In this document: piece after piece, positions 28,968 to 63,455 of the stretch
Layout: each line of letters begins with the position of its first letter
Position numbering within the stretch: the first letter of the stretch is position 1
IMG/VR virus record: IMGVR_UViG_3300043570_003617
Length of the DNA: 64,000 bases
Strand: one strand, 5' to 3'
Source: a virus
Program-made: the position numbers and the translations under genes
Notes under the pieces: model-generated
The model's input: the letters and a program-made list of their open reading frames with translations, nothing else
What the model was told of the DNA's origin: nothing
The model's database searches: none

Positions 28968-31900
28968 TTAAGATAAAGAAAAAGATGCTAGTCCTGTATT
29001 GGTTGTTGTTATACTTAAAGTATAAGGATATACCACATTCGCTGTTAGTGTTCTTGTCGTGTTAACACTAATACTACTAGTATTAGAGTTGTGTGTCATT
29101 GTTCTACTACCACCTGTAATAGTTCCCGTTCCCCCTATAACTAAAGTAGCTGTAGTATATTGAGTTCCAAAAAATATAAAACTAGAATTAGCAGACGAAG
29201 TTAAGTTAATAGTCACAGGTGATGATGATACTGTTATAGTACCTGTTATAGTAGCCGAAGTTGTTGATGTATTACCAGATATTGTATATGGTAGTGCAGC
29301 AAATCCTACTCCAACTTTACCAGAAATTCCACTAAAATATTCTGCAGCGTAAATTCCAGTACTATTAACTGATACTATTCCAACACCAACACCAACACCA
29401 ACACCACTAACTGGAGTATTTGAATTTTGAGTTTTAATACTATCTAATCCTATAGAAATATTATCTATAAAGTTAAAATTAGCATTTGAATAATCAATAA
29501 ACGGTGATATTCCTTGGAATGGAATCTCAACCCCTTTATTTATAGTATCTTCTGTAAAGTATTGGAAGAATGGTATCATATCTACTTCATAAAAGTGTAA
29601 ATTATCAATTGTATAATCTACAGTTTGTGAAATATTACCATAGAATCTCATTCCTAAATTTCTTTTATTAAAGAAATATTCTGTTTTCTTTGTTTTCTTA
29701 GTATTTAAATGATTTACATTTTGATAAATTGGTAAAAATGTAGCATCTATAACAGTTGATGCGGTAACACCATCTAAATCATAGTAAATATTTCTTACTA
29801 TTTTATTTATATTATCAAAATGTATGCTTGGTACTGTAGTAAATCCAAAAAGACCATATCCACCACCTTGATCAGTCCATGTATTAGGCATTACATCGTC
29901 TAGTGTTCCAGAATCAAGAGAACCATTACTTGATACAATTGACAATCCAGGAAAAGCAGTTACAATATTTTCATTGGATAATCCATAATAAGGAACACCA
30001 GCCATTGAGTGTGTTACTAAATCAAAATCAACTTTTGTATATCTATTTCTACCAAGATCATACATAGCTCTATTTCTCAATGAAATATCCATTAACGAGT
30101 ATGGTGTGATGTTTAATATTCCACCATCTCCAATAGCCTGTACTTTAAGTTCTTCTCCTGTTAAAGGATAAACACCTTTATCTTCTGTTCTTGAGAATGT
30201 CAAGGAGCTAATACTGCCTCTTGAAAAGGTCCAACCTTGTGAAGTAAATCCAGACTCATTTAAATTATCAAAATAGTTTTCAAATTTTCCAGAATCTCCT
30301 ATAAAGTCAGCAAATATTTTATATTTTGTACCTAGTCTATATTTTCTAATAGTTGTTGAAAAACTATCTCTAAATATTGAATCACTTTCTAAAACATCTA
30401 GTGTTGGATAACCATATAAATTATTCTCTGAGTAGTATGAAGTTCTAAATCTACTTAATAAATTTTGAGGTTTTCCAATATTAACAGCACTTGAATCATC
30501 ATAATTAACATCAATCCAAGAGTTAAATGTAAATACACTAGCACTTTGTTCTGATTGAATAGAAGTAATTCTAGATTTATTATTTGACTTAAATGACATT
30601 TTTTGTATAACACCTTTAGACTTATTAACAGAAGATGTACCGCCCTCATTAGATGTGTCGGATCCCCACTCTTGGTCTATTACAACATGGTAATCATTTA
30701 TTATATATTTAACAGTATGTTCACCATCATATTGAGGATTTATTAATTTATTGGATTTATCAATAGTAATCACATCTTTAGAAACTAAATTATGTTTAAA
30801 TGAAAACGTTAATCCAACATATCCTATATTATCAGAATCTTTATAATATAAAGTATCTGAGAAAGTAGCTGATGGGTATTTAACCGTATTGAAGTGACCA
30901 CCGTCAAATATACCATCTATCCAATGAGAATCATACATTTCAGTAATTAGTGGATATCCCTTGAATAGTCCATAATTCCAAATACCTTTGAAATATCCAT
31001 TTAAGAATCCACCTGATAACCAAACATTTTTGGTTATATACATTCTGTGATTCTCAGAGTCTCTTTCAATTCTTCTTAAAGGAAAGTTATTATCAAATTC
31101 TACTATTATACTATCTACTGTTTTATTAATTATTGTAAAGTAGTTTTTAAGTAATCTTCTATTATCATTTATGTCAATAGCAACTATATTACCAATTGAG
31201 ATATTATCACCTACTGCAAATTTAGCAACGGATGAAGTAGGTCCTTGTATTTGTACTCTCCATTTTTTTAACATATTATAAGAAAAGTGTTGATAAACAT
31301 CATAAAACTCATACATTCCATCATCAACTCTCCATCCACTATTCCAAACTCCATTCTCCCAAATTCCTGACTTGAATGTTCCATTTCCTATTTTTGAAAA
31401 AATACTACTAACAGATAAATATTGTGTAGCATTGACTGTATTTCCTTGACCAACATTTGCTGAGTATGTAGCTCCTGTTAATCCTATAGCTGATAAAGTT
31501 GTTGGATTAGAGTATACTGAAGAATTTGTTAATAAATATTTTCTATTATTACCTGAGTGATATCCGCCTTCAACTTTTATATTTGATATATAAAATCCAC
31601 TATATGTTGCTGAAGTTGTTCCTACATAAGGACCAACAAAATAAATATATTTATTTCCTTTTAATCCATAAAAGGCTTGAGGTATTGCATAATCATATGA
31701 CGAGTAAGTACCATATGTTTGTGTCGTCAGGTCATAATTCATACTATGTGTTAGTGTGCCTAACAATATACTTCCCACAGGTGGTGAAAAAACCTCAGAG
31801 TTGTTTGATGGTAATGATGTAGATAAGTAAATGTTTACTGGATGATTTGAAATATTTTGATAGTTAAACGTTATATTAAAGCTATTATATTGTATAAATT

Positions 31901-32603
31901 TGGCTATGTAGTTATTTCTTCTATACCCAGATTTAGCCGTTTTTAATCCATTTACTCCACCAACTGGATTTTTCCCATTATTAGAAGAGTCATACCAAAA
32001 ATAAACATCTTGATCTCTATCATATAACCATCCAAGTGATACATGACTTTGAGATGTGCCTAGAAATTTTGGATTGGTTAACTCATATCCAGCTAATTTA
32101 TAGTAAGAAAAACCTTGTATTGTAAAGTCTATTTCAGTTGCAGTTAATCCTAAAATACCAGTATTTCCAATTAATCCAGCGTTAGCTCTATATAACATAT
32201 ATGTAGAACTATTAAAATCGGAATTTGGACTTGAGTAGTGATAAAAATATTGATTATTAGCGCCTGGTGTCGTAGATGGTGTAGTTCCACTAGCTTGATT
32301 AAAGTTTAGTTTGTCAATTGGATTTTTACCCCCTAATGAGTTTATACCCCAAGGTGTCATGGAAAAATTAGAGGCGGTTGCGTAAAATGAACGCATGGTT
32401 GTTTTAAATTGATAAGTCTTATTTGCTTTCCAAGAATATGGTGTTGATGTATATGTTAAAGTATATCCGGTGGTGCTTAACGTAGACCTAACAGGTGATG
32501 TATTAATATTCATTCTATTAGGTGATGTTGAGAGAACCCAATCCGGACTAGTTGATGCCCCTATTCCCACACCGGTAACCGTATATCCTGTAATCCATGC
32601 CAT
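28968..32603 (-). CDS. giant 1211-aa virion protein with Trp-pentapeptide-like repeats and a Ser/Thr-rich C-terminus
   Basis: Uninterrupted ORF with G-x-W-x-x repeats (FKSGIWENGVWNSGWRVDDG), a GVGVGVGVG tract and a Thr/Ser-rich tail. Co-transcribed with the upstream giant gene (30-nt gap). Confidence 0.85.
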   Translation of the reverse strand: MAWITGYTVTGVGIGASTSPDWVLSTSPNRMNINTSPVRSTLSTTGYTLTYTSTPYSWKANKTYQFKTTMRSFYATASNFSMTPWGINSLGGKNPIDKLNFNQASGTTPSTTPGANNQYFYHYSSPNSDFNSSTYMLYRANAGLIGNTGILGLTATEIDFTIQGFSYYKLAGYELTNPKFLGTSQSHVSLGWLYDRDQDVYFWYDSSNNGKNPVGGVNGLKTAKSGYRRNNYIAKFIQYNSFNITFNYQNISNHPVNIYLSTSLPSNNSEVFSPPVGSILLGTLTHSMNYDLTTQTYGTYSSYDYAIPQAFYGLKGNKYIYFVGPYVGTTSATYSGFYISNIKVEGGYHSGNNRKYLLTNSSVYSNPTTLSAIGLTGATYSANVGQGNTVNATQYLSVSSIFSKIGNGTFKSGIWENGVWNSGWRVDDGMYEFYDVYQHFSYNMLKKWRVQIQGPTSSVAKFAVGDNISIGNIVAIDINDNRRLLKNYFTIINKTVDSIIVEFDNNFPLRRIERDSENHRMYITKNVWLSGGFLNGYFKGIWNYGLFKGYPLITEMYDSHWIDGIFDGGHFNTVKYPSATFSDTLYYKDSDNIGYVGLTFSFKHNLVSKDVITIDKSNKLINPQYDGEHTVKYIINDYHVVIDQEWGSDTSNEGGTSSVNKSKGVIQKMSFKSNNKSRITSIQSEQSASVFTFNSWIDVNYDDSSAVNIGKPQNLLSRFRTSYYSENNLYGYPTLDVLESDSIFRDSFSTTIRKYRLGTKYKIFADFIGDSGKFENYFDNLNESGFTSQGWTFSRGSISSLTFSRTEDKGVYPLTGEELKVQAIGDGGILNITPYSLMDISLRNRAMYDLGRNRYTKVDFDLVTHSMAGVPYYGLSNENIVTAFPGLSIVSSNGSLDSGTLDDVMPNTWTDQGGGYGLFGFTTVPSIHFDNINKIVRNIYYDLDGVTASTVIDATFLPIYQNVNHLNTKKTKKTEYFFNKRNLGMRFYGNISQTVDYTIDNLHFYEVDMIPFFQYFTEDTINKGVEIPFQGISPFIDYSNANFNFIDNISIGLDSIKTQNSNTPVSGVGVGVGVGIVSVNSTGIYAAEYFSGISGKVGVGFAALPYTISGNTSTTSATITGTITVSSSPVTINLTSSANSSFIFFGTQYTTATLVIGGTGTITGGSRTMTHNSNTSSISVNTTRTLTANVVYPYTLSITTTNTGLASFSLS

Positions 32604-32633
32604 ATTTCTATATATTAATTTATTGTTTTTTTC

Positions 32634-35600
32634 TTAAGCCTGTTGTCCACCTTGAGCGACATATGTGTAAGTTGGTGTGTCAGCTACAGCATTTGCTATC
32701 TGAGTTTCTTTTTCTTCTGTATTTAAAAATATATTCCAAACATGAGTTGAAGATGTTCCACTCCAAGACATTCCTCTGAATAATATCTGTTTAACATAAT
32801 CACTAGTTACTAATCCATTAAACTCAAATGATGATCCATACCAGTTACCATTTCTCCATAATCCTTTTTCCCAGAATATATTAAACGCATTCATATATTT
32901 ACAAACTCCATTCTCCCAAATCATACCAGTAGCTGTTCCTAAATTAAAATTACCATTCTTCCATCTAGATATGTAAAAATCACTACTTTCTAAATCTCCA
33001 TTTTGCCAATAACAAGTACTATCATTTAAATTAAATGATGATTGTGTTGATCCATTTCTCTTAACATAAGGATTAAAGGAACTACCAATAAATTTACCTC
33101 TTTTAAATGAGCCATCCAACCAAACAGATGAAGACATTTCACCATTTGAGTGGTTAAATGTACCAGACTGCCATAAACCATTTTTAAATTTAGCGACTAA
33201 TCCTCTGGATTTTATAAGTCTTGCTCTTGTTGGAATTGTATATATTGGTTGATTATTTATAAATTTATCTTTTATATCTGTGAATATCCCACTTCTCCAA
33301 AGACCCCAATATGAATAACTAAATGAATCAACAAAGTCAGATGCGACACCACAAGTTAAACCACCTATTGTACTTCCACCACTTCCTTGTAATTCTCCTT
33401 GTAAAAAAATACCATTGTTCCAAACTCTACCTCTGAAAATACCACCACTAAATTCACCTGTGTACCAAGTTGAGTTAGTTAATCCATTTGCATTACCAAA
33501 TTTACCATTGTTAAAAGTTCCACTTTCCCATGTATAATTACTTTGTGTTAATGAATCACTTTGTGTCCATCCGTATCCAGAAACAAATAAACCATTGTTA
33601 AAAGTTCCTTTTTTCCATCTTCCATTACTTACAAACTGACCACCATTAAATGTTCCATTATTCCAAATTGCTGAGTTTGAAGCAGTTTGTGATATATTTG
33701 ATCCAAAAACACCCTCATTGAAATAACCATCATTCCATTCTATACTAGCATTAATATTTTTATTTAATGATGTATCTTCAGCATATAAAGTTGCATTTTC
33801 TACAACAGCATAACTAACAGTTCCATTATAGAACTTTGTATCTAGTGTAGAAACTTGATTACTTCCTATTAGACCATTTTCAAATAATCCATTATACCAT
33901 TTAGAATTCCAGAATCTACCACCTGAGAAAGTACCACCCTCCCAATCACTCTTATAAAAATCACCATTTATAAAATTACCATTTTGCCAAGAATATCTAT
34001 CGTTAGATACTGTTGCTGATGATGGTGGATAAATATTACCAAGGGTTACACCATCTTTATAATATGATCTTATTCTATTTGAATTGTATAAAGGGAAGTA
34101 AGTTGTTGGATTAGCATCAAAACTTCTTGATCCATAGAAAGAACCATTTACAAATGATCCATTAACCCATGTTGATTCTTTTATAACACCACTTGAGAAA
34201 GTACCACTTATCCATATAGAATTTTGTATAATACCATCATTCCAAACGTCTGTTCCTTTTACAAATGATGAATATAAATAAGTTGCAGAAGATAAAATAT
34301 TTGACTTATCTGAATATATTGAATCTGTAACTACCAAACTTCTTAGTTTATTTAAGTTGGTATATTCTTTATCTGAAGAATCATATGTTTCAGATTGTAT
34401 TATAGATTCTTTTATATAAGGTCTTTTGAATATTCCAGATTTTATGTCAGATTTATCTATTTTTAAACTTTTTATATAATTGTATCTATTCTTAGCATCT
34501 TTTGTATAGAAATAACTTGCGGTAACTCCAATAATTTGACTAGACGAACCAGTTATTATTTCTTGTAGCTCATAAACTCCAAATTGATTAGAACCTGAAG
34601 AAGCATCTGATTTTGATACAACTTTATAAGCATCTGGTAGTCTTGATGCAGAAACAGAAGTAATTGACACATTCAAATTATTAATTGGTACATTATCTAA
34701 TGTATATCCACCAGATGAAATTGTTATTACTGAACTTGTTATTGATAAAACTTTTGAATATGAATATGAAGCATATGTATATGTTAAACTACTATCAATA
34801 AGATTACCACCAGCAACAGTTCCATCATATATAACTAAATCGTCATTTAATACTGTGTCAAATTCTAATAAATATTGACCAGAATATGTTAGAGATATAA
34901 TATAACTGTATATTGAACTACTTGGACCCAAAGATATACTGGGATTACTAAAAATTATTCTATTATAATAATCATTATAATCTACCGTATCTAAGAAAAC
35001 AACACTTCCAACTGATAAGTAATCTAAATCACCTTCAGGAAAGAATTTATCAAAAGAAGAAGTTGCTATTAAGTATCCACTTGAAGTAGCAACAGATAAA
35101 TTATATTGACCACCAATAGAATTTTGTATTGTAATATTTGAATCATTATTATAGTTTATATGATTTCCACTATTCCATTGTGAATTTTCAAATAAACCAC
35201 TATCAAAATCAGAGTCTATTATATAAGCATTTGATATATCAACTATACTACCTAATGATGTTGACGGAGTAGCATAACTCACAGGAACTTCTGATGTATT
35301 AAAATTCATAACATGATTACCAATTAAAGGTGGTTCATTTGATATAGATGGATAATCTATATCATAAAGTTTAGCCCAAATATCAATTGAATAAAGTTTG
35401 TTTATATTTATATTAACATATCTATATGTTTTAAAATTAGTAGCACTAGTACCCTGTGTGTTAAATAAATAAGAATTTTCTTCAGGAGTTGATAAGAAAG
35501 CTGAAAATTCAATACCTCTTTTGAAGAATCGGTCATTATAAATATCATAATCTTCAACATATTCAGACCAAGCATTTATTCTAAACTTTTTATCAAAGAA

Positions 35601-37244
35601 GTTTATTACATTTTTACTATTATCATTTATTTTTAATCCTTTAATATAAAATTTGTCACCTGTTTTTAATCTATTATACGATGCCTCTGTTATATAGAAT
35701 TTATAAACCTTTTGAACAGTTCCACTTATAGATGAAAATTGAGATGATAATGTTGGATGCTCTGCAGCATTTATTTCATCATATCCTAATATCTTAATTA
35801 TATCATCACTATTATAAGTTGAATTATGAAAAACAGAATTCTTAAAATAAGAATTTACAGATTTAACACCTTCAAATAAAGTGTTATTAGCTCTTATATT
35901 TCTTAACTCAGAATTAGATACATGTGAGTTATTTAATTCACATGTATCAAAATCAGCAGTAATTATAGTATTTAAATACTCACTTGATGATCCAGTTATG
36001 TATTTTTCAACTATAGAATATGTAGCGGATTGAGAACCAATAACAGTTCTTATGATAGTTCCGTTATTTATTATAGAACTTTCTATATTTGAGTTTATTA
36101 TATAATTAAGACCCTTTCCACCATTATTATATGATTTTGATTTTTGATAAGGAAGTCCATATTCATCTATTCCTGAAAAATAACTATCAACTAAATTATA
36201 AAGTGAATTAAAAGTTCCTTTTTTCCAAGTTGTGTTTAATAAAGTACCCGTGTTCCAAGTAGATTTATCACCTTCCCAAGTTATTTGTTTATTTTGTCTT
36301 CCAAATATACCTGTGTTCCAGATACCATCAAAATCACCATCTCTAAAGTTATTTTTACTTAAAAGTGGTTGAAAATATGTAACATCAACAACCCAATCTG
36401 ATTGAGTGGGTCCAACAATCCATTTATAAACATATCCTTCTTTATACTGTTTACCATTATAAGTAAAGTCACCATTCATTATTTTAATTCTATCATTATT
36501 ATAATAGATTGGTGATAAAGCATATGAATAAGAAGCTGTTATATTAGTTGTGTCTGTAAATTCGGTTGTTATATTAGTCCAACTTTGTGTTCTTCCATTT
36601 CTAACAAAAAAACCAGGTGACCCTACAACACCACCATTAAGACCCCAACGAGCACCTGATATAGCAAATGTTGTATAGTCTTGGTCAATAAAGGATATTG
36701 TATTTTGATAACGATTAAATTTATAATCAAAAAATCCATCTCTTGTAGTTACTTGTCTGTTAGCATGTAAAAACTCTTGTTGATTTCTAATATAGTAAAC
36801 TTTAATAAAATTATCTATTATGTCCTCTTTCCAAGGTTTAACTCCAGTATAGTTTATATCAAGAACAACTTTACAATTATCTATATAAAGAACTTTATAA
36901 CCATCTCTTCCCTTTTTATACTTATCAGATTCTATTAATAAATCACTGTCATAATTACCATTAACAATAAAAACTCGATCACCTACTTTTAATGCTGAAT
37001 TTATTTCAGTATAAAATAAAGTTTTTAGAATACCTTTTACCTCATACGACTCAACCCAGTTAATTAACCTTGGACTAAATGATCTATCAATTGTTGAATT
37101 CATACCTAATATAGGATCATATCCAACTAATTTTATATTAGATCCTAATGATAAAAGCTCAGCTCTTGATATCAACATTGGTTTTGTTGATATTAAATTG
37201 CTTATTTCTTGTGTCGCTGAGTTGGTCAGTGAAAATGTTGCCAT
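32634..37244 (-). CDS. giant 1536-aa virion protein with extensive Trp/Phe pentapeptide-like repeats
   Basis: Repeats such as NGNFINGDFYKSDWEGGTFSGGRFWNSKWYNGLFENG and ESGTFNNGKFGNANGLTNSTWYTGEFSGGIFRGRVWNNGIF. A TATATA-motif promoter lies upstream on the minus strand at 37264..37279. Confidence 0.85.
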   Translation of the reverse strand: MATFSLTNSATQEISNLISTKPMLISRAELLSLGSNIKLVGYDPILGMNSTIDRSFSPRLINWVESYEVKGILKTLFYTEINSALKVGDRVFIVNGNYDSDLLIESDKYKKGRDGYKVLYIDNCKVVLDINYTGVKPWKEDIIDNFIKVYYIRNQQEFLHANRQVTTRDGFFDYKFNRYQNTISFIDQDYTTFAISGARWGLNGGVVGSPGFFVRNGRTQSWTNITTEFTDTTNITASYSYALSPIYYNNDRIKIMNGDFTYNGKQYKEGYVYKWIVGPTQSDWVVDVTYFQPLLSKNNFRDGDFDGIWNTGIFGRQNKQITWEGDKSTWNTGTLLNTTWKKGTFNSLYNLVDSYFSGIDEYGLPYQKSKSYNNGGKGLNYIINSNIESSIINNGTIIRTVIGSQSATYSIVEKYITGSSSEYLNTIITADFDTCELNNSHVSNSELRNIRANNTLFEGVKSVNSYFKNSVFHNSTYNSDDIIKILGYDEINAAEHPTLSSQFSSISGTVQKVYKFYITEASYNRLKTGDKFYIKGLKINDNSKNVINFFDKKFRINAWSEYVEDYDIYNDRFFKRGIEFSAFLSTPEENSYLFNTQGTSATNFKTYRYVNININKLYSIDIWAKLYDIDYPSISNEPPLIGNHVMNFNTSEVPVSYATPSTSLGSIVDISNAYIIDSDFDSGLFENSQWNSGNHINYNNDSNITIQNSIGGQYNLSVATSSGYLIATSSFDKFFPEGDLDYLSVGSVVFLDTVDYNDYYNRIIFSNPSISLGPSSSIYSYIISLTYSGQYLLEFDTVLNDDLVIYDGTVAGGNLIDSSLTYTYASYSYSKVLSITSSVITISSGGYTLDNVPINNLNVSITSVSASRLPDAYKVVSKSDASSGSNQFGVYELQEIITGSSSQIIGVTASYFYTKDAKNRYNYIKSLKIDKSDIKSGIFKRPYIKESIIQSETYDSSDKEYTNLNKLRSLVVTDSIYSDKSNILSSATYLYSSFVKGTDVWNDGIIQNSIWISGTFSSGVIKESTWVNGSFVNGSFYGSRSFDANPTTYFPLYNSNRIRSYYKDGVTLGNIYPPSSATVSNDRYSWQNGNFINGDFYKSDWEGGTFSGGRFWNSKWYNGLFENGLIGSNQVSTLDTKFYNGTVSYAVVENATLYAEDTSLNKNINASIEWNDGYFNEGVFGSNISQTASNSAIWNNGTFNGGQFVSNGRWKKGTFNNGLFVSGYGWTQSDSLTQSNYTWESGTFNNGKFGNANGLTNSTWYTGEFSGGIFRGRVWNNGIFLQGELQGSGGSTIGGLTCGVASDFVDSFSYSYWGLWRSGIFTDIKDKFINNQPIYTIPTRARLIKSRGLVAKFKNGLWQSGTFNHSNGEMSSSVWLDGSFKRGKFIGSSFNPYVKRNGSTQSSFNLNDSTCYWQNGDLESSDFYISRWKNGNFNLGTATGMIWENGVCKYMNAFNIFWEKGLWRNGNWYGSSFEFNGLVTSDYVKQILFRGMSWSGTSSTHVWNIFLNTEEKETQIANAVADTPTYTYVAQGGQQA

Positions 37245-37312
37245 TTATTGATTGAATTCTTTTATGTATATATTATTTATTAAGACGTTCTTTGTTATTA
37301 AACTTTATTTAA

Positions 37313-37330
37313 TTATCTTTGTAAAATAGT
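37313..37330 (+). promoter_or_regulatory. putative promoter with Bacteroidota-like -7 box TATCTTTG (TAnnTTTG), and TTTG ~19 nt further upstream
   Basis: TTAATTATCTTTGTA 15-mer shared (14/15 identical) with the region upstream of ligA at 61613..61625. Ends 0-3 nt before the Sir2 ATG. Confidence 0.45.
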
Positions 37331-38065
37331 ATGGATAAGAAAAAGGTATTGATTTTTACTGGAGCAGGAGTTTCAGCTGAAAGTGGCGTTGCTACTTTTA
37401 GAACTGGTGATGATGGTCTTTGGTATAATCATAAAGTAGAAGATGTTGCCACACCTAGTGGGTGGCGTAGAGATAGGGAAAAAGTTCTTAATTTCTACAA
37501 TATGCGACGTGCTCAAATGAAAGATGTTGAGCCAAATTTAGCGCATAAAATAATTGCTGAATTAGAAAGTGATTATGATGTTACTGTTGTAACTCAGAAT
37601 GTTGATGATTTACACGAAAGATCTGGTTCAACTAATGTTATTCACTTACATGGTGAGTTAACAAAGGCTAGAGGTTGTATGTATGACCACAAAACATCAC
37701 CATTAGATACAGTTATTGATGTGGGATATAATCCAATTAATATTGGAGATAAGTGCCCAACAACTGGTTCTCAACTAAGACCTCACATTGTTTGGTTTGG
37801 TGAAGATTTGGATCCACAATTTGTTGATATGGCTACAGTTGCTGCTAAAGAATGTGATGTTTGTATTGTTGTTGGAACTTCGATGAAAGTTTCTCCTGCT
37901 AATACAATTCCATTTTTGACTAAAGAAAGTGCTAAGATTTACTATGTGGATTTATCAGACCTTGATTTCTATGTACCAGAATATAGAACTGATTTATTTC
38001 ATCATTATCAAGAATTGGCATCAACTGGTATGGAAAAAGTTAAAAATAATTTAAAAAATATTTAA
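37331..38065 (+). CDS. Sir2-family NAD-dependent deacetylase/ADP-ribosyltransferase (sirtuin)
   Basis: Core motifs GAGVSAESGVATFR, TQNVDDLHERSG, IHLHGEL, IVWFGEDL and VVGTSMKV are all present. Confidence 0.75.
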   Translation: MDKKKVLIFTGAGVSAESGVATFRTGDDGLWYNHKVEDVATPSGWRRDREKVLNFYNMRRAQMKDVEPNLAHKIIAELESDYDVTVVTQNVDDLHERSGSTNVIHLHGELTKARGCMYDHKTSPLDTVIDVGYNPINIGDKCPTTGSQLRPHIVWFGEDLDPQFVDMATVAAKECDVCIVVGTSMKVSPANTIPFLTKESAKIYYVDLSDLDFYVPEYRTDLFHHYQELASTGMEKVKNNLKNI

Positions 38066-38066
38066 T

Positions 38067-38306
38067 ATGAACGAGAAATATTACAAAGATATGTTTGGTG
38101 GTACTAAATATGGCGACTATATGGTTTATGGTTTAGATAAATCTGAATCTAAATATAGTGATTACTCAGATTTACTTAATCAAATGGGTAGTTATTATAA
38201 CGTAGCTACTTTTCAAGAAGAATCTGAAGAAGAAAAAACTATCCGTTTAGCTAAAGAAAAGGCTGAAAAAAGAAATAATAAGATTGACCAACTTTTAGGA
38301 GAATAA
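38067..38306 (+). CDS. hypothetical small protein
   Basis: 79-aa ORF starting 2 nt after the Sir2 stop. Confidence 0.45.
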   Translation: MNEKYYKDMFGGTKYGDYMVYGLDKSESKYSDYSDLLNQMGSYYNVATFQEESEEEKTIRLAKEKAEKRNNKIDQLLGE

Positions 38307-38307
38307 T

Positions 38308-38871
38308 ATGTCACAAATATCAATTGTTCATTGGATTACGGCTTTTTTAATAGTTGTTCCTTTATTTGGATTGATTATTTCAATTCCAAGTTTTGTATCT
38401 ATGTATAAACTTGGATTCAAAGCTTATGTAGAACAATTAGTGCTTTTGAAAACAATGTTGAAAAAGATATCATCTGGATATAAAATTACTCAAAATCAAG
38501 TTTATAATTACAGCGGTGTTAGTTATAATGGTCCAAAATCAGTAACACAAGTTGAAACTAATCATTTCTTTCCAATAGTTATTAATAAAGATAATTTATT
38601 AGTTCTTAATAAGAAAGAAGGCCCTTTTAATACACTTCACATTCAATATTGTAAACATATAGATGATGAATGGAATAATAATATAGTTGAGATAAAAACC
38701 TCAAATTGTTTATTTACTCAAATTCTAAATGATAGATTTCAAAAGAAAGTTGATAATCTTATGAAAGAATCTGTTCAACTTGATGGTGTTGAAAATTTGA
38801 ATCAATTATTAAATAGTGAAATAACTTCTATCAAAAGAGAAGATAAACTTAAAGCCATATTAAATGATTAA
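38308..38871 (+). CDS. membrane-anchored hypothetical protein
   Basis: N-terminal transmembrane helix WITAFLIVVPLFGLIISIPSFV. 187 aa. Confidence 0.5.
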   Translation: MSQISIVHWITAFLIVVPLFGLIISIPSFVSMYKLGFKAYVEQLVLLKTMLKKISSGYKITQNQVYNYSGVSYNGPKSVTQVETNHFFPIVINKDNLLVLNKKEGPFNTLHIQYCKHIDDEWNNNIVEIKTSNCLFTQILNDRFQKKVDNLMKESVQLDGVENLNQLLNSEITSIKREDKLKAILND

Positions 38872-39028
38872 AAGAGACATTGTAATAGTAGACCACATCA
38901 ACATGATAAGTGCTACTAAAGTTGATCCTGATATTTTAGAAAGACTTAATCTTCGTGTTAAGAATGTTCGCAAGTATAGAGGTAAAATTGAAAGACGAAA
39001 AGAAAAAATTAAAAGAATTTATGAATAA
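38864..39028 (+). CDS. hypothetical 54-aa ORF (not in supplied track), ATGATTAA overlap with upstream stop
   Basis: ATG at 38864 overlaps the TAA of 38308..38871. The ORF runs into the frame of the next ORF. Basic protein MIKRDIVIVDHINMISATKVDPDILERLNLRVKNVRKYRGKIERRKEKIKRIYE. Confidence 0.25.
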   Translation: MIKRDIVIVDHINMISATKVDPDILERLNLRVKNVRKYRGKIERRKEKIKRIYE

Positions 39029-39212
39029 TAGAGACGTTATTGATATATTTGGTCAATTACTAAATGGTAATAAAGAAATTATGATGTTGAAGGCTAGACA
39101 AACTGGTAAGTCAAGTGTTGCCTCTCATTTAATGGACTGGAAAAAACTATATGATAAACATGAAAGAGTTAGATTAAGAAAAGAAACCATAAAACGACTT
39201 TTTAATATATAA
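38964..39212 (+). CDS. short ORF with terminase-large-subunit-like Walker A segment (EIMMLKARQTGKSSVASHLM)
   Basis: Resembles the T4 gp17 region [30 protein letters not shown]. At 82 aa it is far too short for a terminase. The track start at 38955 is GTG; the first ATG is at 38964. Confidence 0.35.
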   Translation: MFASIEVKLKDEKKKLKEFMNNRDVIDIFGQLLNGNKEIMMLKARQTGKSSVASHLMDWKKLYDKHERVRLRKETIKRLFNI

Positions 39213-39236
39213 CTCAACAAAAAGAAATAAAATTTT

Positions 39237-48100: not shown

Positions 48101-50023
48101 ATGACAAACATTTTAAATTTTATGGCAAATTATTGGTGGATTGCAGCAATTCTCCTTTGTGTAGTAATGTATAAATTCATTCTACGAGTATTTTTCGGAC
48201 TAGTTATTGTTCCAGAGGACAAGATTGGTTTAGTAACAAAAAAGTTCGTTCTTTTTGGAGAACACAAAGAACTTACAGGTGATCGTATTATCGCGGTAAA
48301 TGGTGAAGCTGGTTTTCAAGCAAAGATGCTTTCACCGGGTCTTCACTGGTGGATGTGGCCTTGGCAGTACAACATCGATATGCAAGGATTTGTTGTTATT
48401 CCAGAAGGACATATTGGATTGGTATCAGCAAAAGATGGTTTAGTACCAAAGACAGGACGTATCTTAGGTCGTAGAGTAGAATGTGAAAACTTCCAAGACT
48501 CTGTTACCTTCTTAACTAACGGTGGTCAAAAAGGTCGTCAATCATCTTTTATCACGAATGGTGTTTATAAAATCAACACACACTTATTCGAAGTTTCTAT
48601 TGTTAAACAAGCTACTATTCAAGAAAATATGGTGGGTGTAATCACATCATTAGATGGTGATCCATTAGAGAATGGTCAAATCGCTGGTAAAAATGTTGAA
48701 GGACACAATAACTTCCAAGACTTTGATAAATTCTTAGAGTTAGGTGGTAATCGTGGTTTACAACAACAAACTATCTTAGCTGGTACTTATAACTTAAATC
48801 CTTGGGCTGTTCAAGTAGAAGAAGTACAAATGACTGAGATTCCAATTGGTCACGTTGGAGTTGTTATCTCTTTCGTTGGTGAAGATGGTGTTGACGTAAC
48901 TGGTGTTAACTTCAAACACGGTAACTTAGTTGGTAAAGGACAAAAAGGTGTTTGGGCTGAACCGTTCGGACCTGGTAAATACCCAATCAACAAGTACACT
49001 AATAAGATTGAGTTAGTACCAACAACTAACCTTGTATTGAATTGGGCTAACGCTCGTACTGAGTCTCACAACTTAGATAAAGGACTTAATACAATCACTG
49101 TTCGTTCTAAAGATGGTTTCCCATTCAACTTAGATGTATCACAGATTATCCACATTCCAATGACAGAAGCACCTAAAGTGATTGCTCGATTTGGTAATAT
49201 GAATAACTTAGTATCTCAAGTTTTAGAACCAACAATTGGTAACTACTTCCGTAACTCGGCTCAAGACTCTGATGTAATCGCCTTCTTAACTACTCGTAAA
49301 GAACGTCAAGATTCAGCGAAACAACACATTTCTAAAGTATTAGATGAGTATAATGTTCACGCTGTTGATACTTTGATTGGTGATATCGTTCCACCACAAG
49401 AGTTGATGAAAACGTTAACTGATCGTAAGATTGCTCAAGAACAAGAAGTGACTTTTGAAACTCAAAAGAAAGCCGCTATCTCTCGTCAAACTTTTGAAAA
49501 AGAAACTGCCATCGCTGATATGCAGGGTGAGGTTGTAAAAGCTGACCAAGGTGTACAAATTGCTGAACGTCACGCTGATGCTTCTGTTAAGAAAGCTAAG
49601 GGTGATGCTGAATCTGTTAAAATTGCGGCTGAGGCAAGTGCTGAATCAACAAAGTTGAAAGCAGAAGCAGATGCTACAAGAACATCATTGATTGGTAACG
49701 CTGAGGCTGAGGCTATTCTTTCTAAGGGTAAATCTACAGCTGAGGCTTATAGATTGGCTGTTGACGCTATGGGTAAAGAAAACTTTACTACTTACAAAGT
49801 AACTGAAGAAATCGGCAGAAACAATGTGAAAATCATGCCAGACTTGTTAATCAACGGTGGTGGACAAAGTGGGAACGGTGCAATAGATGGATTATTGGGA
49901 GTTCAAATCTTAAACATGATGGGTAACCAAATTGGTAAGAGTATGAACGACACAACAGTGAAGTCAGTAACTACTGATGTACCTGTTGAAGATCTTTCTG
50001 TCCAAAAGAAAGACAAGAAGTAA
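48101..50023 (+). CDS. SPFH / band-7 (flotillin-like) membrane protein
   Basis: N-terminal transmembrane segment, then an SPFH domain, then an Ala/Glu-rich coiled coil (AEASAESTKLKAEADATRTSLIGNAEAEAIL) as in flotillin/YqiK. Confidence 0.75.
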   Translation: MTNILNFMANYWWIAAILLCVVMYKFILRVFFGLVIVPEDKIGLVTKKFVLFGEHKELTGDRIIAVNGEAGFQAKMLSPGLHWWMWPWQYNIDMQGFVVIPEGHIGLVSAKDGLVPKTGRILGRRVECENFQDSVTFLTNGGQKGRQSSFITNGVYKINTHLFEVSIVKQATIQENMVGVITSLDGDPLENGQIAGKNVEGHNNFQDFDKFLELGGNRGLQQQTILAGTYNLNPWAVQVEEVQMTEIPIGHVGVVISFVGEDGVDVTGVNFKHGNLVGKGQKGVWAEPFGPGKYPINKYTNKIELVPTTNLVLNWANARTESHNLDKGLNTITVRSKDGFPFNLDVSQIIHIPMTEAPKVIARFGNMNNLVSQVLEPTIGNYFRNSAQDSDVIAFLTTRKERQDSAKQHISKVLDEYNVHAVDTLIGDIVPPQELMKTLTDRKIAQEQEVTFETQKKAAISRQTFEKETAIADMQGEVVKADQGVQIAERHADASVKKAKGDAESVKIAAEASAESTKLKAEADATRTSLIGNAEAEAILSKGKSTAEAYRLAVDAMGKENFTTYKVTEEIGRNNVKIMPDLLINGGGQSGNGAIDGLLGVQILNMMGNQIGKSMNDTTVKSVTTDVPVEDLSVQKKDKK

Positions 50024-50037
50024 TCACTTCTATTAAA

Positions 50038-50074
50038 AGAAAACCCTTTGGTTAATTTCAAAGGGTTTTTTTAT
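50038..50074 (+). terminator. rho-independent terminator
   Basis: Stem AACCCTTTG / CAAAGGGTT with loop GTTAATTTC, followed by TTTTTTT. Confidence 0.7.
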
Positions 50075-50086
50075 TTTAAAATATTT

Positions 50087-50341
50087 ATGTATATTTGTAT
50101 TATGCCAAGATATAAAAAAGGAGATATTGTAATTTGCGTAACTAATAAAATGTATGGAATGACATTTCTATTAGAAGTTGGTGAACAATATCAAATTGAT
50201 GCCTTTACTGAAGTGGGTGAAAAGAATTTAGTAAGTGTAACTAATATTAAAAATAATCAAGATATTGGTATATTTGATGATAAACACTTCATGCCATTAG
50301 ATATTTGGCGTGAATTTCAATTAAGAAAGATATTAGAATAA
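50087..50341 (+). CDS. hypothetical small protein (start moved out of the terminator hairpin; alternative ATG at 50102)
   Basis: The track ORF begins with TTG inside the terminator stem. The in-frame ATGs at 50087 and 50102 are more plausible. Confidence 0.4.
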   Translation: MYICIMPRYKKGDIVICVTNKMYGMTFLLEVGEQYQIDAFTEVGEKNLVSVTNIKNNQDIGIFDDKHFMPLDIWREFQLRKILE

Positions 50342-51084
50342 TGTATAATAAAATCTACGACTTCTGTAAAGTTAGAAATCTTGGTGGTACTTACTCAAAT
50401 AGTAATGAACCTACACCAAGAGTTCAATTTCTTATGCAACTTTTAGACTCTGAAGGTATTAACTATGAGTTGGATACTTATCAGTCAAGAGGTAATACTT
50501 GCTTCAATCTTATTTTAAAAGGTGACTCTGATAGAATGGTAGTTGCACATCACGATATTGTAAATCCTAATATTGATAACGCTAATGATAATTCAGCATC
50601 TGTTATCAATGCTATTATGATTAAGAAGTTAATGCCTAAAATGAACGTTGTTCTTTTAGATGGTGAAGAATGTGGTGGATTAGGTTCTCAAAGAGTCTCA
50701 GATCAAATCAATGACGGTTATTTCAATACCATTGATTGGGTTCTTAACTTAGAATTGACTGGCAAAGGTGGTAAATATTTCTTTATTGGTAATTATCCTG
50801 GTAAACTATCTAATCATATTAAATCAATCTTTGATTGTCCAATTACAAACACTCCTTATAATGATTCTGTAACGTTTAGAAAGAACGGAATAGATTCTGT
50901 TGTAATTAATCCAATACCGCCTCTAAACGAAGGCAAGACATCTTGTGTTAAGTGGAATGATGATACTTACTTAGACTTCTCTATGTTGTATAACTGCCAC
51001 TCTTCAAAAGACACTATTGATACAATTGATATCAATGATATGAAAGATTTTGTTGAAGATGTTGTTCTTAAAATACTAGCCTAA
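50341..51084 (+). CDS. M28/M20-like zinc peptidase-like protein
   Basis: Metal-ligand-like blocks MVVAHHDIV (HxD) and LLDGEECGGLGSQ (EE). Confidence 0.45.
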   Translation: MYNKIYDFCKVRNLGGTYSNSNEPTPRVQFLMQLLDSEGINYELDTYQSRGNTCFNLILKGDSDRMVVAHHDIVNPNIDNANDNSASVINAIMIKKLMPKMNVVLLDGEECGGLGSQRVSDQINDGYFNTIDWVLNLELTGKGGKYFFIGNYPGKLSNHIKSIFDCPITNTPYNDSVTFRKNGIDSVVINPIPPLNEGKTSCVKWNDDTYLDFSMLYNCHSSKDTIDTIDINDMKDFVEDVVLKILA

Positions 51085-51101
51085 AAATTTAATATATAAA
51101 G
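51085..51101 (+). promoter_or_regulatory. putative promoter AAATTTAATATATAAAG
   Basis: Recurring motif ~25 nt upstream of the ATG at 51126. Confidence 0.45.
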
Positions 51102-51125
51102 AGTAATAAAAAACTCTTATATTAA

Positions 51126-51539
51126 ATGAATAATTTTAAGGACTTTCAAGAAATTCTGCTTCTAGAAAAAAGAATCGACCAAATATCTTCAACTATTGAA
51201 GTTACTTTTGGATTTGATGTAATCAAAACAACACATGCTGATGATAGATCTGACTTTGCTAAAAGAGGATTAGGTGGTAATCAAAATCCTATTTCAAATG
51301 CTGAAATGTCTGAATTTGTTTCTTACTTTAAGAGGGATATATCTGAAGGTATTGCTACAGGTGATATAGTGCATCAAACAGAATTTGTTATTAGAAGTTT
51401 AGATAGAGAGTTATCTATGGCTATAATAGCGGAAGAAGTTACTCAAAACTATTGGAAGTTAGTTATTAAAACTGTTTTTAGAGAATCTGATGAACATAAA
51501 TTAAAAACTGGAGTAGACCAATTAATTTATGAAAAATAA
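51126..51539 (+). CDS. hypothetical protein (MNNFKDFQEI N-terminus)
   Basis: 137-aa ORF with promoter motif upstream. Confidence 0.55.
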   Translation: MNNFKDFQEILLLEKRIDQISSTIEVTFGFDVIKTTHADDRSDFAKRGLGGNQNPISNAEMSEFVSYFKRDISEGIATGDIVHQTEFVIRSLDRELSMAIIAEEVTQNYWKLVIKTVFRESDEHKLKTGVDQLIYEK

Positions 51540-51549
51540 AAAACAGGCG

Positions 51550-51601: not shown

Positions 51602-51651
51602 CGTTTCAACAATACAAATATAATAAATATTAATTTATATACCAAATTTAA

Positions 51652-51688
51652 AACAAAAAAACCTCAGATTTCTCTGAGGTTTTTTTGT
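51652..51688. terminator. bidirectional rho-independent terminator
   Basis: Stem ACCTCAGA / TCTGAGGT with loop TTTC, T-run after and A-run before. Serves convergent genes 51126..51539 and 51702..52799. Confidence 0.75.
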
Positions 51689-51701
51689 TAGAATTATAAT
51701 C

Positions 51702-61291: not shown

Positions 61292-61307
61292 TTATATATT
61301 AAATTCT
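61292..61307 (-). promoter_or_regulatory. putative promoter (minus strand GAATTTAATATATAAG)
   Basis: Recurring motif ~22 nt upstream of the minus-strand ATG at 61271. Confidence 0.45.
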
Positions 61308-61359
61308 ACTCATTTCTTTAATATTTGTTTTTAATAATTTTATTTCATATATTTGTTAC

Positions 61360-61602
61360 ATGATGAAAATATGGACAGTTACATTTAATGATGGTGGTTG
61401 GCATAGTGGATCTCTGCCAAATTTCACTGTAGTAGCCAATTCAAAAGATGAAGCTATTGAAAAAGTTTTAGAAAAGAATCCTAGATATAAAACAGGATAT
61501 GATAAATGGGCTTCAGAATTCACTATTGAAGGCTATGTAATTGAAGTTTATGATGAAAAAACATATAACAGAAATAAAAATTTAGAAAATCTCTCTATTT
61601 AA
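61360..61602 (+). CDS. hypothetical small protein
   Basis: 80-aa ORF upstream of ligA. Confidence 0.45.
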   Translation: MMKIWTVTFNDGGWHSGSLPNFTVVANSKDEAIEKVLEKNPRYKTGYDKWASEFTIEGYVIEVYDEKTYNRNKNLENLSI

Positions 61603-61612
61603 AATAAATTAA

Positions 61613-61625
61613 CTATCTTTGTATC
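61613..61625 (+). promoter_or_regulatory. putative promoter with -7-like box TATCTTTG (TAnnTTTG)
   Basis: TTAACTATCTTTGTA is 14/15 identical to the sequence upstream of the Sir2 gene. Confidence 0.45.
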
Positions 61626-63455
61626 ATGATTGAACAACTAAAAGAACAAATTATTAAAGCGAATGACGCTTATAGATTGGGACAACCAATCATATCTGAT
61701 ACTAAGTATGACCAATTAGTTGAAGAATTATCTTTATTATCACCAGATGATGAATTACTTACAAAAGTAGGTGTTGAAATCACTGATGAAACTCGTAAAG
61801 GTAAACTACCTATTGAAATGGCTTCGATGAATAAAATCAAATCAATGAATGATGTTGATGATTGGTCTCGTCTTAAAGGTATTTCTAAAAAAGAAATGGT
61901 TATCATCACACCTAAATATGATGGACTTTCATTATGTGTTAATGAAATGACATCTGAAGCTTGGACTCGTGGTGATGGTGAGTTTGGTCAAAAATCAAGT
62001 GAACATTACTCTTTAATTCAAAATCACTTAAACTTAGAAAAAGATTCATTTAGATTTACTTATGGTGAAGTAATGATTCCTAAGCAAGTTTTTATTGACA
62101 AATTCTCTACTGACTTTGCAAATCCTCGTAACTTAGTTGCCGGTTTGTTAAACTCTAAAACTGTAAGTGAGTCTTTAAAAGATTGTCAGTATATTAAATA
62201 CGGTGCCGTTTGTAATACAATATTCGACACTAAACAAGAAGTTCTTAACGAACTTAATAAAGGTCAAAAAATTAAAGTACAATATTATATATGTGAACTT
62301 GGTGATTTATCAGAAGGTTTACTTATTGAATTATTCCATAAATTTTCAACTGAATTTGAAATTGATGGTTTAATCATCGAACTTAATGATTTAAGTTTAC
62401 AAAATAAATTAGGTCGCGAGACTTCATCAAACAATCCTGTTTGGGCTCGCGCATTCAAACACCCAAGTTTTGAACAATCTGCTGAAACAGATGTTATCGG
62501 AATTTCTTGGAATATCTCTAAACAAGGTTTATTAAAACCAATTCTACACATCACTCCTGTTAAATTAGATGGTGTTACAGTGTCTAACGTGACTGGTAAC
62601 AACGCCAGATTCGTAAAAGACTTAGGACTTGGTGTAGGAGCTAAAGTTGTCGTAAAACGCTCTGGAATGGTTATTCCAATCATTGCTGATGTTATCACTC
62701 CAGTTGAATTTATTCAACCTACAATCGAAGGTGTTGAAGTAGATTGGAATGAAGCAGGTATCGAGTTAATTACTTTAACTGAAACTGACGACCAAAAGTT
62801 AAAAAAGATTGTTGCTTTCTTTGAAATATTAGAATCTGACAATGTGTCAGAAGGAGTTATCACTCAATTATGGGAAGCTGGTTACAAAACAATCAAAGAT
62901 ATTCTTACTCTTAAAACTTCTGACTTAGAGAAGATTGACCGTTTTGGTAAGAGAAAAGCTGATATTGTTTATAAGTCTATTCAAAAGTCTGTTAGTAATG
63001 TCCAGTTGTCTAAACTACAACATGCTACAGGTATCTTCAAAGGATTAGGTTCTAAGAAATTAGTTCTTTTAGAAGACTTCAAAACTAAACCTAGTGTTGA
63101 CCAAGTAATGTCGATTGAAGGATTTGCTGAAGTATCTGCTAAATCATACATTGACTCATATGACATATTCTTTGATTTTATTAAAGATTTACCTGTCACA
63201 ATTGTCGAAAAAGTTCAAGCTGTTAAAGTTGGCACAGACCTTGAGGGTAAATCATTTGTCTTTACCGGAGTTCGTAGACCAGATTTAGAATCTGATATTG
63301 AATCTCGTGGTGGAAAAATTGGTTCTGGTGTATCAAAAACAACAACTTACCTTGTAATGAAGTCGATTGGTAGTGGTTCTTCTAAAGAGAAGAAAGCCAT
63401 TGACTTGGGTGTTGAAGTGATTACAGTAGAACAATTAGAAAAATTATTAAACTAA
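61626..63455 (+). CDS. ligA: NAD-dependent DNA ligase (LigA)
   Basis: Adenylation motif KYDGLS (KxDG), OB/HhH architecture, and a C-terminal BRCT-like segment GKSFVFTGVRRPDLESDIESRGGKIGSGVSKTTTYLV. 609 aa. Confidence 0.85.
   Translation: MIEQLKEQIIKANDAYRLGQPIISDTKYDQLVEELSLLSPDDELLTKVGVEITDETRKGKLPIEMASMNKIKSMNDVDDWSRLKGISKKEMVIITPKYDGLSLCVNEMTSEAWTRGDGEFGQKSSEHYSLIQNHLNLEKDSFRFTYGEVMIPKQVFIDKFSTDFANPRNLVAGLLNSKTVSESLKDCQYIKYGAVCNTIFDTKQEVLNELNKGQKIKVQYYICELGDLSEGLLIELFHKFSTEFEIDGLIIELNDLSLQNKLGRETSSNNPVWARAFKHPSFEQSAETDVIGISWNISKQGLLKPILHITPVKLDGVTVSNVTGNNARFVKDLGLGVGAKVVVKRSGMVIPIIADVITPVEFIQPTIEGVEVDWNEAGIELITLTETDDQKLKKIVAFFEILESDNVSEGVITQLWEAGYKTIKDILTLKTSDLEKIDRFGKRKADIVYKSIQKSVSNVQLSKLQHATGIFKGLGSKKLVLLEDFKTKPSVDQVMSIEGFAEVSAKSYIDSYDIFFDFIKDLPVTIVEKVQAVKVGTDLEGKSFVFTGVRRPDLESDIESRGGKIGSGVSKTTTYLVMKSIGSGSSKEKKAIDLGVEVITVEQLEKLLN

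What the first reader, a model, noticed from the sequence alone, without database searches (positions are those of the whole stretch)
37313..37330. Sir2 and NAD-dependent ligase share a distinct 15-mer promoter with a Bacteroidota-style -7 box
TTAATTATCTTTGTA upstream of Sir2 and TTAACTATCTTTGTA at 61611..61625 upstream of ligA are 14/15 identical. Both contain TATCTTTG, which fits the Bacteroidota sigma-A -7 consensus TAnnTTTG. The Sir2 copy also has TTTG ~19 nt further upstream (a -33-like element). The two genes encode the two NAD+-consuming enzymes in the window, which suggests early, host-polymerase-dependent co-regulation and gives a clue to host phylum.
Basis: partly seen in the sequence, partly recalled or inferred. 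Interest (0 to 1): 0.65.

Follow-up and report, generated by a model that had tools for sequence, protein, structure and literature searches.

The report
Bacteroidota-type promoters on a huge phage
The shared 15-mer in front of the phage's Sir2 and NAD-ligase genes is a conserved Bacteroidota-style host promoter (TAnnTTTG) that also precedes several other genes, so it points to the host phylum but is not a private switch for the two NAD-using enzymes.

Summary
TTAATTATCTTTGTA lies at 37309-37323, 7 nt before the Sir2 ATG. TTAACTATCTTTGTA lies at 61609-61623, 2 nt before the ligA ATG.

The 14/15 identity is not significant in itself: shuffled AT-rich upstream regions give such pairs almost always. 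The core TAnnTTTG is significant. It is enriched just upstream of start codons (6/58 regions vs 1.4, P=0.002). With a TTTG 18-21 nt upstream it occurs 9 times vs 3.3 expected. It is kept upstream of all 14 other ligA orthologues examined (52-92% aa identity) and of the close Sir2 orthologues, while the two 'n' positions vary freely.

The 15-mer spans positions -17 to -3 of a clade-wide extended consensus, TTwwnTAT(A/C)TTTGTA. That consensus also precedes an 80-aa ORF, a 79-aa ORF/M28 peptidase unit, a CoaE-like unit and a possible small RNA. It is therefore a general Bacteroidota sigma-A-type promoter class, not an NAD-specific element.

The box usually sits 3-4 nt from the ATG, which predicts leaderless mRNAs. 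The window's dominant promoter-like motif is a different one, TTAATATATA (12 copies vs 2 expected). Early timing is untested.

The parts
37291..37294 (+). -33-like TTTG of the Sir2 promoter, 19 nt upstream of the -7 box
   Evidence: Kept in the three closest relatives, lost in L005 and L062.
37309..37323 (+). Sir2 copy of the 15-mer (TTAATTATCTTTGTA), taken as positions -17 to -3 of the promoter. The -7 box TATCTTTG is 37314-37321. Predicted start is about 37326 (A), giving a 5-nt leader.
   Evidence: In 6 genomes TA..TTTGTAAAATA.TATG is invariant and only the two n positions vary. Box-to-start geometry is from PMC6847099.
37331..38065 (+). CobB-like class III sirtuin (Sir2), 244 aa
   Evidence: Pfam SIR2 2e-46. 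PDB CobB 6rxj/1s5p about 2-3e-44. Independent gene calls on JGI metagenome contigs use the same ATG.
37267..37276 (-). Variant of the TTAATATATA motif (ATAATATATA) facing the divergent 1536-aa gene (32634-37244, minus)
   Evidence: The TATATA core is invariant in relatives.
61324..61355 (+). -33 TTTG, 20-nt spacer and -7 box TATATTTG (61348-61355), then 4 nt to the ATG of an 80-aa ORF
   Evidence: The orthologous ORF keeps a box 3-5 nt from its ATG in all relatives that carry the ORF.
61360..61602 (+). 80-aa ORF of unknown function, directly upstream of ligA
   Evidence: no Pfam family. Conserved in relatives.
61609..61623 (+). ligA copy of the 15-mer (TTAACTATCTTTGTA). The -7 box TATCTTTG is 61614-61621, 4 nt before the ATG. 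Predicted start is the A of the ATG (61626), i.e. a leaderless mRNA. No -33 TTTG.
   Evidence: A TAnnTTTG box lies upstream of all 14 other ligA orthologues checked.
61626..63455 (+). NAD-dependent DNA ligase (LigA), 609 aa
   Evidence: Pfam adenylation, OB, HhH and BRCT domains.
61293..61302 (-). TTAATATATA motif facing the divergent 1067-aa gene (58068-61271, minus)
   Evidence: Present at the same place in all ligA loci.
50090..50097 (+). -7 box TATATTTG just after a terminator hairpin, 4 nt before ATG 50102 (79-aa ORF, followed by an M28 peptidase gene)
45318..45349 (+). -33 TTTG, 20-nt spacer and -7 box TATATTTG, 23 nt before the CoaE-like gene (45373-45990)
51615..51646 (-). -33 TTTG, 20-nt spacer and -7 box TATATTTG on the minus strand, after a terminator and facing about 80 nt of non-coding DNA that ends in another terminator

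Best explanation
Both 15-mers are the core (positions -17 to -3) of promoters of the type read by the Bacteroidota housekeeping sigma factor (sigma-A 'Bfr'). Each has a -7 element TAnnTTTG (T-12 A-11 .. T-8 T-7 T-6 G-5) preceded by an A/T-rich block beginning TT at -17/-16. The Sir2 copy also has a -33 TTTG 19 nt upstream. Host RNA polymerase would start 4-5 nt after the G. That puts the Sir2 start at about 37326, giving a 5-nt leader. It puts the ligA start on the A of its ATG (61626), giving a leaderless mRNA. The promoter is one of a class used by this clade of huge phages for several auxiliary and nucleic-acid genes. It is not a dedicated Sir2/ligA element. A second, unrelated motif, TTAATATATA, heads most other transcription units, including structural-looking genes. 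Shown here: the sequence, its placement, its enrichment and its conservation. Inferred: recognition by host sigma-A, the start sites, leaderless translation and expression timing.
For: (1) The motif matches the published element position for position. That includes H (not G) at the n positions in the window copies, a 19-20-nt spacer to TTTG, and A/T-richness near -18 (PMC6847099). (2) Placement: 6/58 upstream regions vs 1.4 (P=0.002). The composite -33/-7 pattern occurs 9 times vs 3.3, and 4 of the 9 lie in the 4.8% of the window that is non-coding, in sense orientation. (3) Conservation: all 14 other ligA orthologues (52-92% aa identity) have a TAnnTTTG box 4-16 nt upstream of the ATG, or farther in the MAG contig. 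These include the complete 634- and 642-kb genomes and loci with a different upstream gene. In six Sir2 loci the box is invariant except for nn = TC, AA, AC, TA, GA, CA. (4) The sites sit where transcription units should begin: in divergent intergenic regions or just after terminators. (5) Sigma-70-type -35/-10 matches are not enriched (115 vs 119). (6) Host phylum: SD-like motifs occur in 2/58 genes. The closest DNA and protein relatives are the 634- and 642-kb genomes, whose class was predicted to infect Bacteroidetes. (7) Box-to-ATG spacing across the window plus 17 related loci peaks sharply at 3-4 nt (16 of 40 sites).
Against: There are no RNA data, so start sites, the polymerase used and timing are all inferred. 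ligA and the 50090 site lack a -33 TTTG, although that element is reported to be weak. TAnnTTTG is not enriched over the whole window. The host assignment is indirect. Leaderless transcripts are a minority in the one Bacteroidota species surveyed, where 87% of leaders exceed 10 nt. Many of the 31 sites behind the extended consensus are orthologues and so are not independent. The invariant T-4/A-3 is not part of the published host consensus.
Confidence: 0.78

Rival explanations
1. The 15-mer is a specific operator or regulon signal that co-regulates the two NAD+-consuming enzymes through a dedicated regulator.
For: 14/15 identity with zero exact copies elsewhere. Both gene products use NAD+.
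Against: 14/15 pairs are expected by chance among these upstream regions. 11 of the 15 positions are the clade-wide promoter consensus. The same promoter type precedes unrelated genes. Within related genomes the two sites share only 11-13/15. In the 642-kb genome Sir2 has no box.
Confidence: 0.04
2. The motif is a promoter, but it is read by a phage-encoded sigma factor or a phage-modified RNA polymerase that mimics the host -7 specificity, not by the unmodified host holoenzyme.
For: T-4 is invariant and A-3 near-invariant, and TT at -17/-16 goes beyond the published host consensus. Huge phages are reported to encode sigma factors and anti-sigma factors.
Against: No sigma or RNAP gene was recognised in the window. 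The core and the -33 spacing equal the host consensus, so host sigma-A is the simpler reading.
Confidence: 0.1
3. It is a chance resemblance in AT-rich intergenic DNA with no function.
For: TAnnTTTG is not enriched window-wide, and 15-mer near-identity is expected by chance.
Against: Sense-oriented enrichment next to start codons. Invariance across 14 other ligA orthologues and 6 Sir2 loci while flanks and n positions vary.
Confidence: 0.03
4. The conserved block next to the ATG is a translation-initiation or mRNA-leader signal rather than a promoter.
For: It lies 3-9 nt from the ATG in most cases, and the genome lacks Shine-Dalgarno motifs.
Against: Spacing to the ATG is not fixed: 3, 4, 5, 6, 9, 13, 16 and 23 nt. 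One copy faces non-coding DNA. A -33 TTTG sits at promoter-like distance.
Confidence: 0.05

Closest known systems
Bacteroidota sigma-A (sigma-ABfr) -33/-7 promoters (TTTG / TAnnTTTG), as defined in Bacteroides fragilis and Flavobacterium johnsoniae
   Same: Identical -7 core. H at the n positions in the window copies. 19-20-nt spacer to TTTG where it is present. A/T-rich block near -18. Location at the head of transcription units.
   Different: These sites are on a huge phage genome. T-4/A-3 and TT at -17/-16 are nearly invariant here. Most copies abut the start codon, which predicts leaderless mRNAs, whereas 87% of F. johnsoniae leaders exceed 10 nt.
Host-RNAP promoters of the Bacteroidota phage phi14:2 (crAss-like), middle and late genes
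   Same: A phage of a Bacteroidota host relies on host RNA polymerase for a defined promoter class, and it has separate promoter classes.
   Different: The phi14:2 motif is described as -35/-10-like and usable by E. coli sigma-70. There the host-dependent genes are middle and late, and early genes use a virion RNAP. No RNAP was found in this window.
T4-type division of labour: host sigma-70 early promoters and an AT-rich single-element late promoter (TATAAATA). This comparison is from my own knowledge.
   Same: Two promoter classes. A host-type class precedes enzymes for nucleic-acid and auxiliary functions. An AT-rich single-block class (TTAATATATA) precedes structural-looking genes.
   Different: Timing and the factor that reads TTAATATATA are unknown here. 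The sequences are different.
Leaderless phage mRNAs such as lambda cI from PRM (from my own knowledge)
   Same: The promoter is positioned so that transcription starts on the A of the AUG.
   Different: Here the arrangement recurs at many genes and is conserved across a clade. It has not been shown experimentally.

Membership tests
Bacteroidota sigma-A -33/-7 promoter | -7 element TAnnTTTG (revised to TAHHTTTG) | tested here: met
   TATCTTTG at 37314-37321 and 61614-61621. Definition from PMC6847099.
Bacteroidota sigma-A -33/-7 promoter | -33 TTTG (or TTG) about 19 nt upstream of the -7 element | tested here: inconclusive
   Met for Sir2 (19 nt) and for the 45342, 61348 and 51622-minus sites (20 nt). 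Absent for ligA and the 50090 site. The element is reported to be weak in F. johnsoniae.
Bacteroidota sigma-A -33/-7 promoter | Non-random, sense-oriented placement upstream of genes | tested here: met
   6/58 upstream regions vs 1.4, P=0.002. Composite pattern 9 vs 3.3.
Bacteroidota sigma-A -33/-7 promoter | Conservation of the specified positions, with free n positions, at orthologous sites | tested here: met
Bacteroidota sigma-A -33/-7 promoter | Transcription start 4-5 nt downstream of the element | not testable with these tools
   No RNA data. An A is available at that distance in both copies.
Bacteroidota sigma-A -33/-7 promoter | Host is a member of the Bacteroidota, and its holoenzyme recognises the site | not testable with these tools
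   Indirect support only: relatives predicted to infect Bacteroidetes and SD-like motifs in 2/58 genes.
Canonical sigma-70 -35/-10 promoter | TTGACA-N16-18-TATAAT matches enriched and placed upstream of genes | tested here: not met
   115 found vs 118.8 expected in 36000-55000.
Gene-specific operator or regulon motif for the NAD+ enzymes | The motif is restricted to the co-regulated genes and conserved as a whole unit in relatives | tested here: not met
   The same promoter type occurs at four other units. The non-core positions diverge in relatives, to 11-13/15. It is absent before Sir2 in the 642-kb genome.
Leaderless mRNA | The 5' end of the transcript lies at or within a few nt of the AUG | not testable with these tools
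   The geometry fits: 4 nt between the box and the ATG at ligA, 61360 and 50102, and a clade-wide peak at 3-4 nt. No 5'-end data.

The most novel reading that the evidence does not exclude
This clade of huge, probably Bacteroidota-infecting phages may systematically place promoters 3-5 nt from the start codon. That holds for both the host-type -7 box and the phage-specific TTAATATATA block. If so, a large share of its genes would be expressed as leaderless mRNAs, a general expression strategy in a host that lacks Shine-Dalgarno recognition. It might be linked to the phage's own S1-domain protein.
Probability: 0.4. Interest if true: 0.55.

Novelty: new member of a known kind. Interest (0 to 1): 0.33.

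Why it matters
The result gives a sequence-level, independently testable pointer to a Bacteroidota host for an uncultured huge phage. It also sketches the phage's transcription plan. A host-type promoter class precedes auxiliary enzymes (Sir2, LigA, a CoaE-like kinase, a peptidase). A separate AT-rich class precedes most other genes. The promoters mark transcription-unit boundaries and correct one start codon (50102). They predict leaderless mRNAs that metatranscriptomes could confirm. The result does not reveal a new regulatory principle or an NAD-specific regulon.

Tried and rejected
- The 15-mer as a statistically meaningful repeat: rejected. Shuffled upstream regions give >=14/15 pairs 99.5% of the time, and up to 2 mismatches gives 4 hits vs 2.7 expected.
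- Window-wide enrichment of TAnnTTTG: absent (99 vs 110).
- N4-ATG and N5-ATG patterns by raw count: not significant (4 vs 2.1 each). Only their coincidence with real start codons is informative.
- Sigma-70 promoters: not enriched.
- Rfam and tRNA scans: nothing found.
- A phage RNAP or sigma factor in the window: no Pfam or PHROG hit and no DFDxD / NADFDGD motif in the large ORFs.
- Genome-collection scan with LigA for host clues: a single hit, a MAG contig that looks like a related phage.
- Conservation of the small-RNA candidate: not found downstream of the S1 gene in 10 relatives.
- A third motif, AATATAAAY: weak (18 vs 12.3).
- Bacteroides phage BS-TP1 ligA (34% identity): no exact TAnnTTTG upstream.

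Full report
**1. The observation**

TTAATTATCTTTGTA lies at 37309-37323 (+), and the ATG of a 244-aa ORF follows at 37331. TTAACTATCTTTGTA lies at 61609-61623 (+), and the ATG of a 609-aa ORF follows at 61626. A TTTG sits at 37291-37294, exactly 19 nt upstream of the Sir2 box. The ligA copy has none at that distance.

- The first is a CobB-like class III sirtuin (Pfam SIR2 2e-46; best PDB matches are CobB-type deacylases at about 2-3e-44).
- The second is an NAD-dependent DNA ligase with adenylation, OB, HhH and BRCT domains.
- Independent gene calls on metagenome contigs use the same Sir2 start codon.

**2. Is it more than chance?**

The window has about 28% G+C, and upstream regions are even more A/T-rich. 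I shuffled the 58 48-nt upstream regions. Some pair shared >=14/15 in 99.5% of trials, with a mean of 7.6 pairs. The near-identity of the two 15-mers therefore carries no weight on its own. TAnnTTTG is also not enriched window-wide (99 vs 110 expected).

Placement is what is non-random:

| Test | Observed | Expected | Significance |
|---|---|---|---|
| 48-nt upstream regions containing TAnnTTTG | 6 of 58 | 1.4 | P=0.002 |
| TTTG-N18-21-TAnnTTTG | 9 | 3.3 | 0/100 shuffles reach 9 |
| TTNNNTANNTTTGTA | 5 | 1.5 | 0/100 shuffles reach 5 |

Four of the nine composite sites lie in the 4.8% of the window that is non-coding, each pointing at a downstream unit. Sigma-70-type -35/-10 matches are not enriched (115 vs 119).

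**3. Other copies in the window**

The same box heads at least four other units besides Sir2 and ligA:
- 61348-61355: TATATTTG with TTTG 20 nt upstream, 4 nt before the ATG of an 80-aa ORF that lies just upstream of ligA.
- 50090-50097: TATATTTG directly after a terminator hairpin, 4 nt before an ATG at 50102. This relocates the start of a 79-aa ORF, which is followed by an M28 peptidase gene.
- 45342-45349: TATATTTG with TTTG 20 nt upstream, 23 nt before a CoaE-like kinase gene. That gene heads a unit including a DUF6915 protein and an SPFH/Band-7 protein.
- 51622-51615 (minus strand): TATATTTG with TTTG 20 nt upstream. It lies after a terminator and faces about 80 nt of non-coding DNA that ends in another terminator.

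**4. Comparative evidence**

Protein-guided searches recovered related viral contigs of 56-476 kb. They also recovered the complete 634,780- and 642,428-bp 'uncultured phage' genomes, whose LigA is 72-74% identical.

*ligA.* All 14 other ligA orthologues examined (52-92% aa identity) have a TAnnTTTG box upstream of the ATG.
- Eleven are IMG/VR loci, three of them identical in this region. Two are the complete genomes. One is a contig binned in a MAG.
- Eight IMG/VR loci (plus the 642-kb genome) have a 4-nt spacing to the ATG, as in the window. Others have 6 or 16 nt, and the MAG contig has more.
- The box is present even where the upstream gene is different.

*Sir2.* Six Sir2 loci were aligned. 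TA..TTTGTAAAATA.TATG is invariant, while the two n positions read TC, AA, AC, TA, GA and CA. That is the footprint expected of TAnnTTTG, not of a 15-mer word.

*The 80-aa ORF.* It keeps its own box 3-5 nt from its ATG in every relative that has the ORF.

*The extended consensus.* Pooling 31 sites gives T-35 T-34 ... T-17 T-16 w w n T A T (A/C) T T T G T-4 A-3.

*Limits of the shared 15-mer.* Within other genomes, the Sir2 and ligA sites share only 11-13/15. In the 642-kb genome the Sir2 homologue is operonic and has no box.

**5. What it is**

The element matches the promoter of the Bacteroidota housekeeping sigma factor as characterised in Flavobacterium johnsoniae (PMC6847099). That paper reports:
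- nearly invariant T-12, A-11, T-8, T-7, T-6 and G-5;
- no G at the n positions;
- a weak -33 element;
- A/T-rich blocks near -18 and -28;
- 4-5 nt between the element and the transcription start.

Applying that geometry gives two predictions. Sir2 would start at about 37326, with a 5-nt leader. ligA, the 80-aa ORF and the 50102 ORF would start on the A of their ATG. Across the window plus 17 related loci (185 ORFs), the box-to-ATG spacing peaks sharply at 3-4 nt (16 of 40 sites). A second peak at 9 nt consists entirely of Sir2 orthologues.

This predicts leaderless or near-leaderless mRNAs. That would be unusual, because 87% of F. johnsoniae transcripts have leaders longer than 10 nt. It is an inference from geometry; no RNA data exist.

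**6. Host**

- Shine-Dalgarno-like motifs precede only 2 of 58 genes, as expected for Bacteroidota and their phages.
- The closest relatives have the lengths of the 634- and 642-kb genomes of Al-Shayeb et al. 2020. That paper predicted all its genomes above 634 kb ('Mahaphage' clade) to replicate in Bacteroidetes.
- The best cultured-phage LigA hit is a Bacteroides phage, although at only 34% identity.

All of this is indirect.

**7. The main promoter-like motif is a different one**

TTAATATATA occurs 12 times exactly, vs 2.0 expected (0/100 shuffles). Every copy lies upstream of a gene and is oriented toward it. One-mismatch variants sit in front of further genes. The motif is present throughout the related loci.

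It precedes structural-looking genes:
- a 2425-aa NHL-repeat protein;
- the unit containing collagen-repeat and LamG-domain proteins;
- the 1211-, 1536- and 1067-aa proteins, which have no family assignment.

It also often lies 4 nt from the ATG. The Sir2 and ligA regions are divergent intergenic regions, with this motif on one strand and the -7 promoter on the other.

A host-type class for enzymes and a phage-specific class for virion-like genes resembles the T4 arrangement (my own knowledge). Timing is unknown, however. In the Bacteroidota phage phi14:2, host RNAP transcribes the middle and late genes and a virion RNAP transcribes the early ones (bioRxiv 10.1101/2020.03.07.982082). 'Early' therefore cannot be assumed. 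No RNAP or sigma gene was recognised in the window.

**8. Verdict**

- The '-7 box' reading and the host-phylum clue are well supported.
- The 'distinct 15-mer shared by the two NAD+ enzymes' and the specific co-regulation it implies are not supported.
- 'Early' expression is untested.

This is a new instance of a known promoter type on an uncultured huge phage. It has two modestly interesting extras: conserved promoter-to-ATG abutment, which predicts leaderless mRNAs, and a second clade-wide AT-rich promoter-like motif.

Noticed in passing
window 2937, 10480, 14625, 19083, 20798, 39202, 51089 (+); 25988, 32618, 40987, 44325, 61302 (-): TTAATATATA occurs 12 times exactly vs 2.0 expected. Every copy is upstream of and oriented toward a gene, and it often lies 4 nt from the ATG. 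It is the dominant promoter-like motif of the window, it is conserved across related loci, and it differs from the -7 box. The factor that reads it is unknown.
   Followed up: partly
window 51532-51611 (-): About 80 nt of non-coding DNA lies between a -33/-7 promoter and an intrinsic terminator. It contains a direct repeat, GGAACGATTyAGATACT, twice, and folds better than shuffles (z=-2.66). It may be a small RNA. There is no Rfam match, and it was not found downstream of the S1 gene in 10 relatives.
   Followed up: partly
window 50048-50341 (+): The mechanical ORF start (TTG 50048 or ATG 50087) is probably wrong. A terminator hairpin ends at 50069, and the -7 box at 50090-50097 points to ATG 50102 as the real start.
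   Followed up: partly
whole window (58 ORFs): Shine-Dalgarno-like 4-mers precede only 2 of 58 genes. Positions -20 to -1 are almost purely A/T. The window also encodes an S1-domain protein (51702-52799, minus).
   Followed up: partly
window 28968-37244 (-), 53982-61271 (-), 3188-10465 (+): Very large ORFs of 1211, 1536, 1351 and 1067 aa have essentially no family assignment. Only the 1067-aa protein hits an unknown-function PHROG. A 2425-aa NHL-repeat protein is also present, and collagen-repeat and LamG-domain proteins lie at 15829-19078. No RNAP catalytic motif was seen in any of them.
   Followed up: partly
window 40207-40243: A strong bidirectional intrinsic terminator (17-bp stem with T-runs on both strands) lies between convergent units. 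Similar hairpins occur at 50040-50069 and 51652-51689.
   Followed up: no
L092 (JALOAD010000029.1, MAG 'Candidatus Muiribacterium halophilum'): This was the only genome-collection hit to LigA (52% identity). The contig carries both the TTAATATATA motif and a TTG-N20-TATCTTTG promoter upstream of ligA. It looks like a related phage contig binned into a bacterial MAG.
   Followed up: partly
window 21882, 22578, 48071, 48084 (+); 53296 (-): AATATAAAY recurs upstream of several genes that lack the other two motifs. Enrichment is weak (18 vs 12.3 expected). It may be a third promoter class or just AT-rich background.
   Followed up: partly
window 11416-11430 (-): A full match to the extended consensus (TTCTGTATATTTGTA) lies inside ORF 11349-11789, 60 nt upstream of the ATG of ORF 10882-11355. 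It may be an internal promoter.
   Followed up: no
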